A stretch of 64,000 nt of DNA from NCBI GenBank assembly GCA_964435165.1, contig CAYSXY010000004.1:14686-78685 (forward strand), given 5' to 3'. This DNA is from an uncultured Rickettsiales bacterium. GTDB lineage: Bacteria > Pseudomonadota > Alphaproteobacteria > Rickettsiales > RI-342. This document shows, piece after piece, positions 57,423 to 64,000 of the stretch. The translations under genes were made by a program, and so were the position numbers. Position 1 is the stretch's first letter; each line of letters opens with the position of its first letter. The notes under the pieces were generated by a model. It saw only the letters and a program-made list of their open reading frames with translations, was not told where the DNA came from and did no database searches.

Positions 57423-58583
57423 ATGTCCACGCCGTCACGCGCATTACTGCCAACGGGCTTTTATGACCTTCTCTATCCTGATGCGGGCTTCGAGGCATTG
57501 CTCCAGGGACAGATCATGCAGGCATTCCAGGGATTTGGCTATGAACGCGTCAAGCCGCCCCTGGTTGAGTTTGAAGAAAATCTGCTGTTAGCCGGCAGCA
57601 ACAAGATGGATAAAGACACGTTTCGCCTGATGGACCCTGCCTCGCAGCGTATGATGGGCATCCGCACAGATATTACCATGCAAATCGGACGCATCGCTCT
57701 GTCGCGGCTCAAACGCGCCCCACGGCCGTTACGCTTGTGTTATAGCGGCACCACGCTTTCGACCAATGCGCAGGCGATTAACCCGGCACGGCAATTCACT
57801 CAAGCCGGCGCGGAACTGATTGGTGTGACCTCACGCGCATCCGATGTTGAGGCGATTGTCGTCGCCGTCGAGGGGATGACACGCATTGGCGTGCGCGATA
57901 TTTCCGTGGACTTAAATCTCCCTACCCTGGCACCGCAATTGCTTGAAGATGCCGGGCTGCCAGTGGAAGAACGGCGCAATATTCTCAGTGCGCTGGCACA
58001 AAAAGATTTAGGAGCACTGGATCATATCGATGCACCTATTGCCACGTTGCTGCGTGCCCTCACCCAACATTGCGGCCCGGCGGATTCCGCTCTGGCCGCA
58101 CTCGAAAGCCTGGATTTTCCAGCCGATATCGCACCGCTCATTGATCGCCTGCGCTACATCGCGCATCGTGTCAGGCAGAATTGCCCGGGCTGTGAGATTA
58201 CCATTGACGCTGCCGAGCATCGCGGTTTTGACTATCACACCGGTATCAGTTTCGCGTTATTTGCGAAAGGTATTGATGGCGAAATCGGGCGCGGCGGGCG
58301 CTATTGCATTGCGTTTGACAACAAAACGCCTGCCATTGGATTTACGATTTATCTCAGTCGTTTACTCCCAATTCTTCAAATGAAAAAACCAAAGCCACGT
58401 GTTTATATACCGGCCGGCATCCTGCACCTGGATATTCGGGAAGCGATTGGTGAGGAGTATGTGACGGTCCATGGGCTGGAAGACACACCGCTGAGCGATA
58501 CGGACGCTATGATACGTGAGGCTAAACGGCTTGGCTGCCAGTATCTCTGGCTGGATGACACGCTCACACCAACACCCAAATAA
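57423..58583 (+). CDS. hisZ: ATP phosphoribosyltransferase regulatory subunit HisZ (HisRS paralog)
   Basis: Class II aaRS-like core (LPTGFYDLL, FRLMDP, RTDITMQIGRIA, RPLRLCYSG) without an anticodon-binding domain. 386 aa. Confidence 0.7.
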   Translation: MSTPSRALLPTGFYDLLYPDAGFEALLQGQIMQAFQGFGYERVKPPLVEFEENLLLAGSNKMDKDTFRLMDPASQRMMGIRTDITMQIGRIALSRLKRAPRPLRLCYSGTTLSTNAQAINPARQFTQAGAELIGVTSRASDVEAIVVAVEGMTRIGVRDISVDLNLPTLAPQLLEDAGLPVEERRNILSALAQKDLGALDHIDAPIATLLRALTQHCGPADSALAALESLDFPADIAPLIDRLRYIAHRVRQNCPGCEITIDAAEHRGFDYHTGISFALFAKGIDGEIGRGGRYCIAFDNKTPAIGFTIYLSRLLPILQMKKPKPRVYIPAGILHLDIREAIGEEYVTVHGLEDTPLSDTDAMIREAKRLGCQYLWLDDTLTPTPK

Positions 58584-58616
58584 ACGAAACAACACACTGA
58601 ATACACAGGATTGATA

Positions 58617-59909
58617 ATGACTAATGTTGCAGTGATAGGCTCTCAATGGGGCGATGAAGGTAAGGGTAAAGTAGTGGACTGGCTCTCTGAACGCGCCGAT
58701 GTGATTGTGCGCTTTCAGGGTGGCCATAATGCCGGACACACGTTGGTTATTGACGGCACAACCTATAAACTCAGCCTGCTTCCTTCAGGCGTGGTACGGC
58801 AAAATAAATTGTCCATCATCGGCAATGGGGTGGTTGTTGATCCCTGGGAATTGCTGAAGGAAATCGACCGTATTGCCGATCAGGGCGTCTCCATTACACC
58901 TGAAAACCTGCGCATTGCCGAAAATTGTCCGTTGATTCTCCCCATTCACCCGATGCTGGATAATGCGGCAGAGGAAGCTCGGGGACAGGAAAAAATCGGC
59001 ACCACCGGTCGCGGCATTGGCCCGGCCTATGAAGATAAAATCGCACGGCGGGCCATTCGTATTTGTGACCTGGCGCATGAACAACTGCTCAAAGACAAGC
59101 TCGACAATATGTTGTTTCATCATAATGCGCTGCTGAAAGGATTTGGCCGCGAGCCAATGACGCGTGAGAGCCTGTATGACCCCTTGATGGAGATTGCCGA
59201 GCGCCTGCTGGGATTCGCAGAACCCATCTGGAGGCGATTGGAGCTCTGTCGCAAGCAGGGTAAGCGAGTATTATTTGAAGGAGCGCAAGGCTCAATGCTG
59301 GATGTCGATCACGGCACATATCCTTATGTTACATCATCCAACACCGTAGCAGGACTAGCGTCCGTCGGTTCTGGGTGCGGCATTGATATGATCGGTTATG
59401 TGCTCGGCATTACCAAAGCATACACCACACGGGTAGGCAGCGGCCCCTTCCCTACCGAGCAGGAAAATGATATCGGGCAGCGTCTTGGTGAGCGTGGGCG
59501 TGAATTTGGCACGGTAACCGGGCGTCAGCGGCGATGCGGCTGGTTTGATGCGGTAATGGTTCGCCAGGCCATGAAAATTTCAGGCGTCCACGGCATTTGC
59601 CTCACCAAACTCGATGTGCTGGATGGGTTTGATAGCTTGCAGATTTGCGTCGGCTATCGATATCAGGATGTCATGTATGATTACTACCCTGCCTCTCCGG
59701 TAATCCAGGCGGAAGTAGAGCCTGTATATGAAACGATGGAAGGCTGGCAGGAAAGTACCCAGCATGCGCGCAGTTGGGCCGATTTACCGGCACAAGCCAT
59801 CAAATACGTCAAACGTATTGAAGAGCTGATCGATACACCGATCGCGCTGTTATCCACCAGCCCTGAACGTGATGACACCATTCTCGTGAAAGACCCGTTT
59901 GCCGATTAA
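58617..59909 (+). CDS. purA: Adenylosuccinate synthetase
   Basis: [12 protein letters not shown]-loop, [21 protein letters not shown] and [12 protein letters not shown]. The ATG at 58617 is preferred over the TTG at 58611. Confidence 0.95.
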
Positions 59910-60147
59910 GCACTCTGTTTGTTTGTGATGAGTGAGGCACCATTTATTACAAGGATATAAGGCACGGATTCTTTACTATTTTTTCGTGATCGTGCCGTAA
60001 GATATTTCCTGTGGCGTTTTTGCCTGGCCTTGAACGCAACACATCGCTTTAGTGGTGGCAAGCCGCCACGTGCGAAGCGCCCATGGACTATCATCAAAGG
60101 ATACGACATCGGCATATATTTTGGATAACGACAAGTAGTCACAGCGC

Positions 60148-62280
60148 ATGACGGATAGTGATGTATCCGACCAAGTTGAGGCAGATGATGGTATTGGTGA
60201 TGCACAAAGCGAGCAGGACGCTTTAGAGGCCAACGCACAACATCGGGCCGTTGAATCGATTGAGGAAGCAGCGTTCCGGCGAACGGAAAACACGCTGACC
60301 GGTCGCTTTACCCTGCTGCCTGAGCATGACATTCCCGATCTTGACACCAAAACCGCCAAAGCGTGCGTGGTGAAAGATCATCGCACTGATGCTGATGATT
60401 GCTATGCGCTGATTTGTGACCAAGGCCTGCCGAGTCGCATTCAAGCAGCGATTGATGCCAAAAAAGCCGAGCATAAGCACATGCTCCCTGTGCTGGCGCA
60501 TGGAGCGGTGAATATCTCAACACTGAATGAATGTCGCTATGTCTATATCTTTCCTCGTCCCAAAGGCGTCAAACTCGTTGATCTGATTGCGCCTAAAAGT
60601 GCAATCAGCGAAAAATTTATTATTAAAGAGATTATCCTTCCTTTCACCCAAATCATCCATGCTTTAAGCGAGCAGGATGTCTGTCATGGCAAAATTCACC
60701 CGGATAATGTTTTTTACGACGAGGGCGCCAAGCACAAGGTGACCCTCGGCGAGTGTTTCTCCGAGCCGGCAGGCTATGCCCAGAGTTTTTATTATGAGCC
60801 CATTGAGCGGATGATTGCGCATCCACTCGGGAAGGGTGAAAGCGATGAGAAGGTCGATTACTTCGCGCTCGGCATTCTGGTCATGCATACCTTGCTTGGG
60901 TTCAATCCCATGCAACATCTCTCTCGTGAAGAATATATTGAAAAATGCCTGACAAACGGCATGTACAATACCATTGTCGGCAACCGCGAATTTTCTGGCA
61001 TGACCGAAGATTTACTCAAAGGATTGCTGGCTGATGATCCTGATGAGCGCTGGGGCTACGCCCATCTCGTGAAATGGCTGGGCGGTAAAAAATATAATCT
61101 ATTGCGCCCGACACCGCCGCGTGAGGCCCCCCGGCCCTATACCTTCCTCGATAAGCCCTATTTCAATCGCAAGCATCTCTGTCATCAGTTTCATCAGCAT
61201 TGGGGCAAAGCAAAATCCGAGTTACGTGACAAGAAAGTACAGCGCTGGGTAGAGCTCAGCGTCCAGGAACCGGATATCGCCAAAACGCTCACGCGTATCG
61301 TTGAATTGACGGGCGGCGAGACCGGGCGACTGCCGACCGATGATGATGATTTGGTGACAAAATCGATTACCTTGCTTGATCCGACAGGACCGTTTCGCCT
61401 GCATACGCTGTCCACGCATTTATCGGGTATCGGGCCGGTGTTAGCCAGTGCCTTCCGGGATAATAATAAAGCATTGCAACATCTGGTGCTTCGTATCATC
61501 GAGAGTGACGTGATTGGCACCTGGTCCGAGCTCAACAAAACACTGCCGGGATTTCACAATGCCGATATTGTCTGGCGCATTGAAAAACGCCGCCACACCT
61601 TTCAACTCACCACGCTTGGCTATGGGCTGGAACGTATTTTATACGATTTCAATCTGAGCATGCCGTGCATGAGCCCTATTGTCTCCCGTCATTATGTGAC
61701 CACTATGAAAGAGCTCATGTACAGCCTGGACTCACAGCCCGCGGATGTGATGAAAAACCAGGATCCGGTGGATCGGCATATTGCCGCCTTCATCTGCAGT
61801 CGGCTGAATGTGTTCAAAGAAATCAAATCCGATCTGGATATTTTCCCACACTATAAGGGTAAAATGATTCTGAAATACCTGGTTCTATTGGCCGCCACCC
61901 ATCGCAAAATTGGCGAACCTCCTCTGCCCAATCTCTGCGGCTGGATTGCGGAGCGCTGCAAACCGCTGATCGATCAACTCAATAGCCGAAGCCTGCAAAA
62001 AGATGTACGGATCGAACTCGATAAACTGGCAGCTAAAGGTAATATCACCGACATTATGAAGCTGATTATCAATAAAGATGTCATCAGCAAAGATCAGGAA
62101 GGGTTGTTGCAGGCGACAGGTCGCTACCTGAAAAATGCAAAAAAAATAAAAGAATTAAATATACGCGGCACGCAGGAGGAACGTGCCCGGAATATTGGCT
62201 ATAAATTGGCGCAAACCATCAGCTTTGGCATTCTGACTATCGCCATTCTGTCGCTGGTGCGCGATTATGTAAGGTTGTGA
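60148..62280 (+). CDS. Membrane-anchored protein-kinase-fold protein lacking the catalytic residues (predicted pseudokinase), with a helical region of about 380 aa and a C-terminal TM helix
   Basis: Kinase C-lobe pattern HGKIHPDNVFYDE...VTLGECF...YYEPIE...DYFALGILVMHTLLGFNP...DDPDERW. The HRD Asp is replaced by Lys and the DFG Asp by Glu. There is no Gly-rich loop or VAIK Lys. C-terminal TM FGILTIAILSLV. Confidence 0.65.
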   Translation: MTDSDVSDQVEADDGIGDAQSEQDALEANAQHRAVESIEEAAFRRTENTLTGRFTLLPEHDIPDLDTKTAKACVVKDHRTDADDCYALICDQGLPSRIQAAIDAKKAEHKHMLPVLAHGAVNISTLNECRYVYIFPRPKGVKLVDLIAPKSAISEKFIIKEIILPFTQIIHALSEQDVCHGKIHPDNVFYDEGAKHKVTLGECFSEPAGYAQSFYYEPIERMIAHPLGKGESDEKVDYFALGILVMHTLLGFNPMQHLSREEYIEKCLTNGMYNTIVGNREFSGMTEDLLKGLLADDPDERWGYAHLVKWLGGKKYNLLRPTPPREAPRPYTFLDKPYFNRKHLCHQFHQHWGKAKSELRDKKVQRWVELSVQEPDIAKTLTRIVELTGGETGRLPTDDDDLVTKSITLLDPTGPFRLHTLSTHLSGIGPVLASAFRDNNKALQHLVLRIIESDVIGTWSELNKTLPGFHNADIVWRIEKRRHTFQLTTLGYGLERILYDFNLSMPCMSPIVSRHYVTTMKELMYSLDSQPADVMKNQDPVDRHIAAFICSRLNVFKEIKSDLDIFPHYKGKMILKYLVLLAATHRKIGEPPLPNLCGWIAERCKPLIDQLNSRSLQKDVRIELDKLAAKGNITDIMKLIINKDVISKDQEGLLQATGRYLKNAKKIKELNIRGTQEERARNIGYKLAQTISFGILTIAILSLVRDYVRL

Positions 62281-62288
62281 GGCACGGA

Positions 62289-62753
62289 ATGGGTAAGACT
62301 GTCAAACGCGTGAAAAAGACGACCGGCACCGGCTTTGCCATCCGCCTGCTTGTGCTCATTCTCATTTTATTCATCCTGATTAAACATAGTATCATTTTCC
62401 TGATCGCAGGTATGCTGCCGGCAATTGTCGCCTCCATCGTGGATCAATCGGACGGCCGTATTTTATTTCGCACGGTGTTGGCAACGAATACGGCGGGTAT
62501 TGCCCGCTATATGGCCGAGCTCATCAGTCAGAATAATTCACGTGAGGCCGTGCATTATGTCATGAGTGACCCGGGTATTTGGCTGGTTGTCTACACCTCC
62601 GCAGCCATTGGGTGGATTTTGTTTCTGGGCTGCCCCAAAGGCGTGGAAATGGCCATGGATATGTTCTCCGACAATAAGGTAAAGGCGCTCGAGCAGGAAC
62701 AACAAAAGCTGGAAGCGGAATGGGGGCCGAAAGTGACAGGCCACGACATGTAA
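62289..62753 (+). CDS. Small integral membrane protein (about 154 aa, 3-4 TM), partner of the pseudokinase gene
   Basis: It starts 9 nt after the upstream stop. Hydrophobic segments and a C-terminal charged helix. No recognisable family. Confidence 0.5.
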   Translation: MGKTVKRVKKTTGTGFAIRLLVLILILFILIKHSIIFLIAGMLPAIVASIVDQSDGRILFRTVLATNTAGIARYMAELISQNNSREAVHYVMSDPGIWLVVYTSAAIGWILFLGCPKGVEMAMDMFSDNKVKALEQEQQKLEAEWGPKVTGHDM

Positions 62754-63019
62754 TGACGAGCCGCTACCTTGTGCGACATTATCGCCACCATTGAGCATTA
62801 TTTTCTTCTTATCCCTTCTTTTCTGTGCTTCGTCGATACGCTAATCGTCCATAGTTTTTGCTGTCTTTTGATAGGCTTGGCTGAGATAGATCGCATTTTA
62901 ATAAAATAGTAAATTTTAACCCCTTAGATAAGGAGGTTAGGGGAGCCTTGACAGCATTACGCCCTGCGCATATTGCTGTCATGTTTCGTGGTTCAAAGTG
63001 ATCGATAATGGGCATATTT

Positions 63020-64000
63020 ATGCAATATTTAAGATCTCACATGCCAAGTCTGCGTCACTGCCGCGATCACTTGAGAGGTAGAGCCCACACGCCTTCATCC
63101 TGTGCTGTTGCGCTTGTCATTTCCCTGTGGCTTATGCCGTTATCGATGCATTCATCCGCTCTGGCTGATGATGTTACGACACCAAAATCTACTGTTCAAA
63201 CACCCGCCTCTAAGCAGCATCACACCGCTGATGGCACTCCCGCCGTTACGAAAAACAAACACGAATCTTCTGTGAGTTCACGTGCTACCACTTCGGCTGA
63301 TGTAAAAGCAGATGACAATGCCATGTCTAATACGCCGACGAGCCTGCCATTGCTGGAGCCCAAGCCGTCAGTCGATACATCCGCAAAAACCCTGTCATCG
63401 CCCAGTTCTGAGGCAACGCTCGAGCCTGCAGCGATCAATGAGTCAGAAACAGAAGCAGGTCTCGATACAGGCGATGAAGCGGGTGAGCCTGCAACTAACG
63501 TGGTTGAACAGGATGAGCCGGAGGCAAGGCGCACCACGAATGAACGAAATGAGTCAGGCAAACAACATATTCTTAGAGCCGGTGATACGGTGATGATGCG
63601 TGTGTTCGGACACGCCGATATGACCAGTGAGATGGTGATTGCAGAGGATGGATTTATTACCGTACCACTGCTCGGTGCGTTAGAAGCGGAAGGCAAGAGC
63701 GTGCATGCACTCAAGCAGGAAATTCGCCAGCTGCTTGACCGTGATTTTATCGTCGAACCGCGTGTAACGCTTGAGGTCATCGGCTATGAACCGTTTTTTA
63801 TTTTGGGCCAAGTGATGAATCCCGGCAGTTATGAATATGAGCCGGGAATGGATATTCGTAAAGCCGTTGCCCTTGCCGGTGGCTTTACGTCCCGCGCCCG
63901 CACCAGCAACATGACCATCATTCGGAAAGAAGCCGGTGAGCGCATGCAAGTGGAAGGGAACATGGACGCACCAATTTTTCCCGGCGATACCATAGAAATA
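63020..64000 (+). CDS. Wza-like polysaccharide export protein (Poly_export + SLBB), 5' part; it continues beyond the window
   Basis: Hand translation shows an open frame from the ATG at 63020 to base 64000. It has a signal peptide (AVALVISLWLMPLSMHSSALA) and a low-complexity linker of about 150 aa. The Poly_export and SLBB regions follow: LRAGDTVMMRVFGHADMTSEMVIAEDGFITVPLLGALEAEGKSVHALKQEI...PRVTLEVIGYEPFFILGQVMNPGSYEY...AVALAGGFT. It is not in the ORF track because no stop lies inside the window. Confidence 0.8.
   Translation, partial: MQYLRSHMPSLRHCRDHLRGRAHTPSSCAVALVISLWLMPLSMHSSALADDVTTPKSTVQTPASKQHHTADGTPAVTKNKHESSVSSRATTSADVKADDNAMSNTPTSLPLLEPKPSVDTSAKTLSSPSSEATLEPAAINESETEAGLDTGDEAGEPATNVVEQDEPEARRTTNERNESGKQHILRAGDTVMMRVFGHADMTSEMVIAEDGFITVPLLGALEAEGKSVHALKQEIRQLLDRDFIVEPRVTLEVIGYEPFFILGQVMNPGSYEYEPGMDIRKAVALAGGFTSRARTSNMTIIRKEAGERMQVEGNMDAPIFPGDTIEI

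What the first reader, a model, noticed from the sequence alone, without database searches (positions are those of the whole stretch)
60148..62753. Membrane-anchored bacterial pseudokinase with a small membrane partner, next to a Wza-type export gene
The 710-aa product has an unmistakable eukaryotic-like protein-kinase C-lobe: DYFALGILVMHTLLGFNP, DDPDERW and YYEPIE in place of APE. Every catalytic element is nonetheless changed.
- The catalytic loop is HGKIHPDN, so the HRD / HGD Asp is replaced by Lys.
- DFG is replaced by GEC(F).
- There is no GxGxxG loop (PDLDTKTA in its place).
- The VAIK Lys position reads ALIC.
The kinase fold is followed by an uncharacterised helical region of about 380 aa and a C-terminal TM helix. 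A 154-aa polytopic membrane protein gene starts 9 nt downstream. About 270 nt further on, a Wza-like polysaccharide export gene begins. A dead kinase tethered to the membrane suggests a scaffold or sensor role, possibly in envelope or polysaccharide control, rather than phosphotransfer.
Basis: partly seen in the sequence, partly recalled or inferred. Interest (0 to 1): 0.6.

Follow-up and report, generated by a model that had tools for sequence, protein, structure and literature searches.

The report
Membrane-tethered dead kinase with partner
Two adjacent genes encode a kinase-shaped protein that has lost its catalytic residues and is tethered to the inner membrane by its last helix, plus a small membrane protein that always accompanies it; the pair occurs in about 38% of sampled alphaproteobacterial genomes, I found no study of it, and its link to the neighbouring Wza export gene is accidental.

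Summary
ORF 60148-62280 encodes a 710-aa protein with a confident kinase fold. Across 183 diverse relatives, none has the beta3 Lys or the HRD Asp, and 1 of 183 has an Asp at the DFG positions. There is no Gly-rich loop.

- **Architecture:** after the kinase fold comes a confidently modelled ~330-aa helical domain (pLDDT 89.5). It has no Pfam match and no structural relative in the PDB. A stalk helix and a C-terminal tail-anchor follow.
- **Partner:** the 154-aa membrane protein lies directly downstream in 33/33 loci. It was found in the same 152 of 401 alphaproteobacterial genomes as the pseudokinase and is duplicated together with it.
- **Members:** named members include Rhodospirillum rubrum and Magnetospirillum.
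- **No active kinase nearby:** this genome has no other Pkinase match, so the protein is not a regulator of an active paralogue.
- **Wza link not supported:** wza-wzc sits beside the pair only in this genome, as a two-gene insertion.
- **Caveat:** an acidic residue (E/D202, 97%) and Asn187 (85%) are conserved, so residual metal binding is not excluded.
- **Most likely role:** a non-catalytic membrane scaffold or signal-relay complex. This is inferred, not shown.

It fits none of the seven described bacterial pseudokinase families. This scan had already flagged the same gene pair seven times in other genomes.

The parts
59910..60147 (+). Intergenic region between purA and the pseudokinase gene (238 nt), presumed to hold the promoter
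   Evidence: The gap is seen. The sigma-70 consensus scan found no promoter-like site in it and no terminator after purA. A gap of comparable size separates purA from the pseudokinase gene in most other loci.
60148..62280 (+). Gene for the 710-aa tail-anchored pseudokinase
   Evidence: ORF. An identical 710-aa protein is present in the public collection (P0001). Full-length homologues were found in 152/401 alphaproteobacterial genomes.
60289..61083 (+). Pseudokinase domain (residues ~48-312)
   Evidence: Pfam Pkinase scores 36.2 bits. The AF2 model shows a bilobal fold, and Foldseek matches PknB, Stk1 and ULK1. The C-lobe scaffold residues are kept: D237 in 182/183, R301 in 181/183, E217 in 173/183, H180 in 170/183.
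60685..60708 (+). Degenerate catalytic loop HGKIHPDN (residues 180-187). Lys182 sits at the HRD-Asp position.
   Evidence: Alignment to GRK1. In the family, position 182 is A93/R22/G19/N15 and so on, with Asp in 0/183. N187 is kept in 156/183.
60745..60762 (+). LGECFS (residues 200-205) in place of the DFG motif
   Evidence: One search puts a gap or T199 at the DFG Asp. Positions 199-201 hold 1 Asp in 183 members. G201 is kept in 176/183 and C203 in 145/183. Position 202 is acidic in 177/183.
61084..62076 (+). C-terminal helical domain (residues ~313-643) of unknown fold, with invariant polar residues
   Evidence: Modelled alone it gives pLDDT 89.5 and pTM 0.83. The best Foldseek hit in the PDB has E 0.78 and TM <=0.21. 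There is no Pfam family and no meaningful PDB sequence match. Residues kept in at least 96% of members: W367, P415, G491, G493, E495, R496, Y499, C507, S509, D542, H544, Q585 (His in the window) and G631.
62074..62202 (+). Juxtamembrane stalk helix (residues ~643-685)
   Evidence: The AF2 model shows one continuous helix over residues 643-709. D649 and A656 are kept in 98-99% of members.
62203..62262 (+). Tail-anchor transmembrane helix (residues ~686-705), followed by 5 residues
   Evidence: Hydropathy windows 686-704 and 687-705 score 1.7. The N-terminus is acidic and has no signal peptide or TM.
62289..62753 (+). Gene for the 154-aa polytopic membrane partner (alternative GTG start at 62277 overlapping the stop)
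   Evidence: A GAGG lies 6 nt before the ATG. An independent annotation calls a 154-aa product (P0309). The gene is directly downstream in 33/33 loci and is homologous across loci, with P44 invariant and N67, G70, G108, P116, W145 and G146 in at least 90%. It was found in the same 152/401 genomes as the pseudokinase. Hydrophobic segments lie at 12-54 (a two-helix hairpin) and 95-123, with an amphipathic helix at 58-80.

Best explanation
The two genes encode an obligate inner-membrane pair found in Rhodospirillales-type and related Alphaproteobacteria.

**Shown**
- The large protein is a true pseudokinase. It keeps the kinase fold and the C-lobe scaffold: the alphaF Asp, the APE-Glu/Arg salt-bridge pair, and a highly conserved short activation segment.
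- It lacks the Gly-rich loop, the beta3 Lys, the HRD Asp and the DFG Asp.
- The kinase fold is joined to a ~330-aa helical domain of unknown fold.
- A long stalk helix ending in a tail-anchor TM holds the protein on the cytoplasmic face of the membrane.
- The small polytopic protein is translationally coupled to it and shares its phyletic distribution.

**Inferred**
- The partner's TM helices, and perhaps its conserved C-terminal helix (..EEWG), pack against the tail-anchor and stalk.
- The cytoplasmic pseudokinase plus helical domain then acts without phosphotransfer. It would be a binding platform or conformational switch that recruits or releases a cytoplasmic client at the membrane, possibly in response to what the partner senses.
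- The client and the pathway are unknown.
- The pair is not part of the Wza/Wzc export locus next to it.
For: **Fold and dead catalytic positions**
- Pfam Pkinase, PDB kinase alignments, the AF2 model and Foldseek agree on the fold.
- Catalytic positions in 183 members: 0 Lys at beta3, 0 Asp at the HRD position, 1 Asp at the DFG positions.
- C-lobe scaffold residues are near-invariant.

**Membrane tethering**
- A single TM lies at the extreme C-terminus and the N-terminus is acidic.

**Obligate pairing**
- The partner is directly downstream in 33/33 loci, usually overlapping or within 20 nt.
- The pseudokinase and partner profiles hit the same 152 of 401 genomes.
- Second copies of the pseudokinase each have their own partner next door.
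- The partial distance correlation between pseudokinase and partner, given PurA, is 0.44. Only 1/2000 permutations reached it.

**Not an accessory to an active kinase**
- It is the only PF00069 match in this 97.8%-complete genome.
- Full-length Hanks kinases were found in only 1-2 of 41 related genomes, while the pseudokinase is in 28.

**Vertically inherited core-region gene**
- hisZ-purA lies upstream in most loci.
- There is one copy in most genomes.
- Genomes of the same order without it are mostly the smallest, 1.0-1.9 Mb, and G014 holds a decayed copy.

**Wza is incidental**.
Against: - There is no experimental or interaction evidence. Complex formation and the scaffold role are inferred from gene order, co-occurrence and architecture.
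- E/D202 (97%) and N187 (85%) correspond roughly to the two canonical Mg-binding positions, and R97 is 98% conserved at the start of alphaC. Cation or nucleotide binding, or an unorthodox activity, is therefore not excluded.
- The helical domain has more invariant polar residues (E495, R496, Y499, C507, S509, D542, H544, Q585) than a plain scaffold would need.
- I had no model coordinates, so I could not test whether these residues cluster.
- The topology of the partner (3 or 4 membrane passes) is unresolved.
Confidence: 0.6

Rival explanations
1. The functional centre is the C-terminal helical domain, not the kinase fold. Its invariant Cys507, Ser509, Asp542, His544, Glu495, Arg496 and Tyr499 would form a ligand- or metal-binding pocket, or an enzyme active site of a new fold. 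The pseudokinase domain would act as its regulatory or docking module.
For: - The domain is confidently modelled (pLDDT 89.5) yet has no PDB relative and no Pfam family.
- It carries most of the protein's invariant polar residues, and these sit in loops between helices.
- The domain always occurs in this one architecture, in about 1071 clusters at E<=1e-30.
Against: - No recognisable catalytic motif was found, and there is no similarity to any enzyme.
- Spatial clustering of the invariant residues could not be checked.
- Invariant residues can equally mark a protein-protein interface or the contact with the kinase domain.
- The window's own protein has His where 97% of the family has Gln585.
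Confidence: 0.2
2. It is still an enzyme that uses the kinase fold in an unorthodox way. Examples are SelO (AMPylation), SidJ (glutamylation) and WNK-type kinases, which use a relocated Lys.
For: - Asn187 is kept in 85% of members and an acidic residue at 202 in 97%. R97 is 98% conserved near the start of alphaC.
- Bacterial pseudokinases with new activities are documented (PMC12599244).
Against: - SelO and SidJ keep their ATP- and metal-binding Lys and Asp (PMC12599244). This family has 0/183 Lys at positions 88-90, no Gly-rich loop and 0/183 Asp at the HRD position.
- No alternative Lys is conserved in beta2. Position 71 is K or R in only 35/64 members.
Confidence: 0.08
3. The pair would regulate or scaffold the adjacent Wza/Wzc polysaccharide export machinery.
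For: In this genome a Wza-like gene starts about 255 nt after the partner gene. It is followed by a Wzc-type BY-kinase gene.
Against: - A Wza-like gene is near the pair in 1 of 31 genomes examined.
- A same-family relative has identical flanks (fur, RDD, AAA_26) without wza-wzc.
- Downstream genes in other loci are fur, rpoH, ferritin, fmt or mnmA.
Confidence: 0.04
4. The pair is a mobile defence or toxin-antitoxin-like module, with a kinase-like effector and a small membrane protein.
For: There are weak PADLOC matches to kinase-type defence proteins (PD-T4-6, mad6, MkoA; E 7e-6 to 1e-2).
Against: - Those matches cover only generic kinase C-lobe sequence.
- The partner has no PADLOC hit.
- The pair is mostly single-copy, sits in a conserved housekeeping neighbourhood (hisZ-purA), and its divergence tracks PurA (r = 0.58). 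This is unlike defence islands.
Confidence: 0.03

Closest known systems
EssB/YukC, the membrane pseudokinase of the Firmicute type VIIb secretion system (PDB 6Z0F; reviewed in PMC12599244)
   Same: [quoted passage not shown]
- It is anchored in the cytoplasmic membrane by a single TM.
- It works without catalysis, as a scaffold together with polytopic membrane proteins.
   Different: - EssB has a TM in the middle and an extracellular C-terminal domain. This protein is tail-anchored, with everything in the cytoplasm.
- There was no Pfam YukC/EssB match.
- No type VII genes lie nearby.
- The phylum differs (Firmicutes versus Alphaproteobacteria).
- This protein has an extra ~330-aa helical domain of unknown fold.
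GLW pseudokinases (bacterial Ser/Thr kinase atlas, bioRxiv 10.1101/2025.01.12.632604; review PMC12599244)
   Same: - Both are mainly proteobacterial.
- Both lack the VAIK Lys, HRD Asp and DFG Asp.
[quoted passage not shown]
- Neither has a known function.
   Different: - GLW is defined by a Gly-Leu-Trp motif in place of HRD and a poly-Leu (LLLL/W) beta3.
- This family has H-[G/R]-x (His in 170/183) and Y-A-L-[V/I]-C.
- I could not obtain the GLW representative sequence for a direct comparison.
MviN/MurJ-linked pseudokinase of Mycobacterium tuberculosis (ActPs3; PDB 3UQC; PMC12599244)
   Same: It is a membrane-associated, ATP-non-binding pseudokinase domain that serves as a docking platform in envelope biogenesis.
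   Different: - That pseudokinase is fused to a 14-TM flippase and is regulated by the active kinase PknB.
- It has a deleted activation loop.
- Here the activation segment is intact and highly conserved.
- Here there is no fused transporter.
- This genome has no active Hanks kinase.
Hanks-type bacterial Ser/Thr kinases such as PknB and Stk1
   Same: They are the best structural matches for residues ~48-312 (Foldseek TM up to 0.76-0.80). They share the layout of a kinase domain followed by a TM.
   Different: - PknB-type kinases are active.
- They have an extracellular PASTA sensor after the TM.
- They carry all the catalytic motifs.

Membership tests
Protein kinase fold (Pfam PF00069, Hanks type) | Profile match above the curated cut-off | tested here: met
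   36.2 bits vs 31.7, covering only profile positions 76-258 (C-lobe).
Protein kinase fold (Pfam PF00069, Hanks type) | Bilobal kinase structure | tested here: met
   AF2 model with pLDDT 88.1. Foldseek matches PknB, Stk1 and ULK1 with target TM 0.76-0.80 over ~285 columns.
Catalytically competent Hanks kinase | Beta3 (VAIK) Lys | tested here: not met
   The window reads ALIC. There is no Lys at positions 88-90 in 183 family members.
Catalytically competent Hanks kinase | HRD catalytic Asp | tested here: not met
   K182 aligns with the Asp. No Asp at this position in 183 members.
Catalytically competent Hanks kinase | DFG metal-binding Asp | tested here: inconclusive
   HMMER places a gap or T199 at the Asp. 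Positions 199-201 hold 1 Asp in 183 members. The adjacent position 202 is Glu or Asp in 177/183. Its position relative to the metal site could not be checked without coordinates.
Catalytically competent Hanks kinase | Gly-rich (GxGxxG) loop | tested here: not met
   The window has PDLDTKTA at residues 63-70. The family consensus is P-x-L-[DNS]-x-x-x-A, without the Gly pattern.
GLW pseudokinases | GLW motif replacing HRD | tested here: not met
   Positions 180-182 read H (170/183), G or R, then A/R/G/N. The definition is taken from PMC12599244.
GLW pseudokinases | Poly-Leu LLLL/W at beta3 | tested here: not met
   The family has Y-A-L-[V/I]-C at positions 86-90.
GLW pseudokinases | [quoted passage not shown] | tested here: met
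   TM at 686-705. Members are Alphaproteobacteria.
EssB/YukC (type VIIb secretion) | Sequence-family match and type VII gene neighbourhood | tested here: not met
   No YukC/EssB family appears among the Pfam hits at E<=1. Neighbours are hisZ, purA, fur, rpoH and others.
EssB/YukC (type VIIb secretion) | Bitopic topology with an extracellular C-terminal domain | tested here: not met
   Only 5 residues follow the TM.
Wza/Wzc polysaccharide export locus | Conserved linkage of the pair with wza/wzc | tested here: not met
   A Wza-like gene is near the pair in 1 of 31 genomes. It is a two-gene insertion relative to L001.
Known anti-phage defence systems (PADLOC) | Specific match of both proteins to a defence-system model | tested here: not met
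   The large protein has only weak generic kinase matches (best E 7e-6). The partner has none.

The most novel reading that the evidence does not exclude
The pair is a previously unrecognised membrane signalling or enzymatic machine of Alphaproteobacteria, including Rhodospirillum and Magnetospirillum. A new-fold helical domain would carry an invariant Cys/Ser/Asp/His/Glu/Arg/Tyr site that binds a ligand or metal, or catalyses a reaction. A dead kinase domain would gate it and a 4-TM partner would couple it to the membrane. It would work independently of any active Hanks kinase.
Probability: 0.2. Interest if true: 0.8.

Novelty: new variant of a known kind. Interest (0 to 1): 0.58.

Why it matters
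- Bacterial pseudokinases are barely studied. The current atlas lists seven families, and this one does not meet the defining motifs described for the GLW family, the proteobacterial one with a C-terminal TM.
- The pair is found in about 38% of sampled alphaproteobacterial genomes. The helical-domain profile alone matches more than 1000 clusters at 50% identity, with a fixed architecture.
- It always comes with the same small membrane partner.
- It occurs in genomes that have no active Hanks-type kinase. Its role therefore cannot be to modulate an active paralogue, which is the textbook role of pseudokinases.
- Its C-terminal domain appears to be a new fold.
- Genetically tractable laboratory organisms (Rhodospirillum rubrum, Magnetospirillum) carry it, so its function can be tested directly.

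Tried and rejected
- **Named genome contigs:** The search for related loci on genome contigs, using the helical-domain alignment and an 8-member alignment, failed because no stretch was conserved enough. Organism names came from the search for homologous proteins instead.
- **Helical domain:**
  - Pfam gave only scattered single-member noise.
  - A PDB profile search gave only short matches to designed armadillo repeats, with no stretch passing on its own.
  - The best Foldseek hit in the PDB had E 0.78 (ALPK1 N-terminal domain, TM 0.15), which is not meaningful.
- **Gene fusions:** large 'open frame' values suggested pseudokinase-partner fusions. On inspection, either a stop codon separates the two genes or the frames differ. 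There is no Rosetta-stone evidence.
- **Promoter and terminator scan:** nothing above shuffled expectation in the upstream gap.
- **Regulatory motifs upstream in 31 loci:**
  - No EcfG, RpoH or Fur enrichment was seen.
  - Full CtrA-like boxes occur in 3/31 loci against 0.44 in shuffles. The window has none, and this is too weak to build on.
- **Defence system:** only generic kinase similarity in PADLOC.
- **Literature:** searches for pseudokinase with Alphaproteobacteria, Magnetospirillum, Rhodospirillum or Azospirillum found no paper on this family.
- **Earlier scan notes by sequence:** none found. By words, seven earlier notes on the same gene pair in other genomes turned up.
Full report
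**1. Observation**

The + strand ORF 60148-62280 encodes 710 aa.
- HGKIHPDN at residues 180-187
- LGECFS at residues 200-205
- YYEPIE, DYFALGILVMHTLLGFNP and DDPDERW
- PDLDTKTA where a Gly-rich loop would be
- ALIC where VAIK would be

Pfam's Pkinase model matches above its gathering score (36.2 vs 31.7 bits), but only over the C-lobe (residues 134-308, profile 76-258). phmmer against PDB sequences finds GRK1, phosphorylase kinase, RSK2 and others at E 2e-5 to 4e-3. The alignment puts K182 under the catalytic Asp and a gap or T199 under the DFG/DLG Asp.

An AlphaFold2 model built on a 41-member family alignment is confident (pLDDT 88.1, pTM 0.82). Its residues ~48-312 match PknB, Stk1, ULK1 and many other kinases in Foldseek (target TM up to 0.80, ~285 aligned columns). 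The fold is therefore a complete bilobal kinase.

**2. The degeneracy is a family property, not a local accident**

I aligned 183 family members of under 60% mutual identity, taken. The counts at the catalytic positions are:

| Position | What the family has |
|---|---|
| 88-90 (any plausible register of the beta3 Lys) | No Lys |
| 182 (HRD Asp) | A93, R22, G19, N15 and others; no Asp |
| 199-201 (DFG Asp) | One Asp in total |

The C-lobe scaffold is almost invariant:
- H180 in 170/183
- D237 (alphaF Asp) in 182/183
- E217 (APE Glu) in 173/183, and its partner R301 in 181/183
- W302

The short activation segment LG[E/D]CFS-P-G--Q---YEP[I/V]E is conserved too.

Two points temper the phrase 'every catalytic element is changed'. 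Position 202 is acidic in 177/183 members (E 106, D 71), and the catalytic-loop Asn187 is kept in 156/183. In active kinases, the residues at roughly these positions hold Mg2+. R97, at the start of alphaC, is 98% conserved. Canonical phosphotransfer is very unlikely, but cation or ligand binding is not excluded.

**3. Rest of the protein**

- Residues 1-47 are acidic and modelled with low confidence.
- Residues ~313-643 form a helical domain with two small hairpins.
- A single helix runs from 643 to 709. Its last part (686-705) is the only hydrophobic TM-length segment, and 5 residues follow it.

The protein is therefore tail-anchored, with about 685 residues in the cytoplasm.

Modelled alone with 30 sequences, the helical domain gives pLDDT 89.5 and pTM 0.83. 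Three searches found nothing:
- The best Foldseek hit in the PDB has E 0.78 and TM 0.15.
- No Pfam family matches.
- A profile search of PDB sequences gives only short, non-significant matches to designed repeat proteins.

The domain holds most of the invariant polar residues of the protein: W367, P415, G491, G493, E495, R496, Y499, C507, S509, D542, H544, Q585 (His in the window), G631 and D649.

A profile of this domain finds 1071 clusters (at 50% identity) at E<=1e-30 in 1.84 billion representatives. In the full-length proteins among the 150 best, the domain always sits at about residues 280-650 of a 660-740-aa protein. The architecture is fixed.

**4. The partner**

The downstream ORF is best read from ATG 62289 (154 aa), because a GAGG lies 6 nt upstream. 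A GTG at 62277 overlaps the stop codon. An independent annotation also has the 154-aa product.

In 33 of 33 loci from different genomes, a homologous small gene lies directly after the pseudokinase gene on the same strand, usually overlapping or within 20 nt. P44 is invariant, and N67, G70, G108, P116, W145 and G146 are conserved in at least 90%.

Its features are:
- a basic N-terminus
- a hydrophobic hairpin at 12-54
- an amphipathic helix at 58-80
- a TM at ~95-115
- a C-terminal helix ending in a conserved EEWG

It has no Pfam, NCBIfam or PADLOC match.

**5. Distribution and linkage**

- A six-frame HMM search of 401 evenly drawn alphaproteobacterial genomes finds the pseudokinase full-length in 152 (113 of 295 genera).
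- The partner profile has identical totals and identical family and genus tallies. As far as I could compare the two lists by eye, the hit genomes are the same 152.
- Genomes with two pseudokinase copies have a partner beside each copy (G438, G240, G346, G190).
- Among 41 genomes of the window's own order, 28 carry it. The 13 without it are mostly the smallest (1.0-1.9 Mb), and G014 holds a remnant with stop codons.
- Named carriers include Rhodospirillum rubrum, Pararhodospirillum photometricum, Magnetospirillum, Phaeospirillum, Caenispirillum, Insolitispirillum, Roseospira, Pelagibius, Tistlia, Kiloniellaceae and Rhodothalassiaceae. They are annotated only as 'hypothetical' or 'protein kinase domain-containing'.
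- purA lies immediately upstream in most loci, usually preceded by hisZ.

Pairwise distances give these correlations:

| Comparison | Correlation |
|---|---|
| Pseudokinase vs partner | r = 0.63 |
| Pseudokinase vs partner, given PurA | partial r = 0.44 (reached by 1 of 2000 permutations) |
| Pseudokinase vs PurA | r = 0.58 |

Both proteins evolve about three times faster than PurA. The correlation is modest, and related genomes are not independent, so I treat it as supporting evidence only.

**6. Context that argues against other readings**

*Wza.* The next gene is a genuine Wza-like exporter (Poly_export + SLBB). Beyond the window it is followed by a Wzc-type BY-kinase, then fur, an unknown gene, RDD and an AAA_26 gene. 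A same-family relative has pseudokinase-partner-fur-unknown-RDD-AAA_26 with no wza-wzc. None of the other 30 loci has a Wza-like gene nearby. The adjacency is therefore a lineage-specific insertion.

*Active kinase partner.* This 97.8%-complete genome has no other PF00069 match. Among 41 related genomes, clear full-length Hanks kinases appear only in G023 and perhaps G030.

*Defence system.* There are only weak generic kinase matches in PADLOC, and the pair sits in a housekeeping neighbourhood.

**7. Mechanism**

*Shown:*
- a dead kinase fold with an intact C-lobe scaffold
- a tail anchor
- a domain that appears to be a new fold
- strict genomic pairing and co-occurrence with a small polytopic membrane protein

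*Inferred:*
- The two proteins form a complex through their membrane and juxtamembrane helices.
- The cytoplasmic unit works as a non-catalytic binding platform or switch at the membrane.

The client and signal are unknown. The main rival is that the helical domain's invariant Cys/Ser/Asp/His/Glu/Arg/Tyr residues form a ligand-binding or catalytic site.

**8. Comparison with known families**

The Kannan-lab atlas and review (bioRxiv 10.1101/2025.01.12.632604; PMC12599244) describe seven bacterial pseudokinase families.

- **GLW** is the nearest in outline: proteobacterial, lacking all three catalytic residues, with a C-terminal TM. It is defined by GLW in place of HRD and LLLL/W at beta3. This family has H-[G/R]-x and YAL[V/I]C, so those defining features are not met.
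- **EssB/YukC** is the best functional analogue, as a membrane pseudokinase scaffold. It differs in topology, phylum, neighbourhood and sequence family.

Many members do not reach the Pfam Pkinase threshold. That may be why a PF00069-based atlas did not define this family.

I found no paper on the family.

**9. Earlier notes of this scan**

A word search showed that the same gene pair had been flagged and followed up seven times in other genomes, with the same conclusions. I found these notes only after completing my own analysis, and my results agree with them.

This report adds:
- the Wza insertion analysis
- the matching 152/401 co-occurrence of the two genes
- the absence of active Hanks kinases in this genome and its order
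- the conserved acidic residue at position 202
- the list of invariant residues in the helical domain

**10. Verdict**

This is a real, conserved and uncharacterised pseudokinase-partner module. Its pseudokinase/scaffold reading is supported, and its polysaccharide link is not. I class it as a new variant of a known kind (bacterial membrane pseudokinases), of moderate to good interest.

Noticed in passing
window 63008-64000 and beyond (L034 94-3423 = G000:C4:77693-81022): The Wza-like gene (336 aa, with a ~170-aa Ser/Thr/Ala/Glu/Pro-rich region before the Poly_export domain) is followed by a 752-aa Wzc-type BY-kinase (Wzz + GNVR + AAA_31). Compared with relative L001, the two genes look like an insertion between the partner gene and fur.
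   Followed up: partly
L009, L011, L031 (30-80 nt upstream of the pseudokinase start): Full CtrA-like boxes (TTAA-N7-TTAA) lie upstream of the pseudokinase gene in 3 of 31 loci (0.44 expected from shuffles). Near-matches occur in L001, L020 and L027, and none in the window. This is a weak hint of cell-cycle control in some lineages.
   Followed up: partly
G054:C1 (1300422-1300898, 1773320-1773760, 2762097-2762489) and G321 (C4, C86, C137): Two genomes of one genus each carry three extra partner-like genes away from the single pseudokinase gene. These may be lone paralogues of the small membrane protein.
   Followed up: no
G014:C16:2101-3376: A related genome (1.5 Mb) holds only fragments of the pseudokinase gene, interrupted by several stop codons, so the gene is decaying. 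Genomes of the order that lack the pair are mostly the smallest (1.0-1.9 Mb).
   Followed up: partly
41 genomes of the window's order: Nearly every genome has a short partial PF00069 match (profile positions ~68-153 only) in a 430-550-aa frame. This is probably an atypical kinase-like protein such as UbiB/ABC1. Canonical full-length Hanks kinases are almost absent from the order.
   Followed up: no
window 61900-61902 (residue 585): The window's protein has His where 97% of the family has Gln, at one of the near-invariant positions of the helical domain.
   Followed up: no
window 57423-59909: hisZ (386 aa) and purA (432 aa) lie directly upstream. The hisZ-purA-pseudokinase-partner order recurs in most loci examined across the class.
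   Followed up: yes
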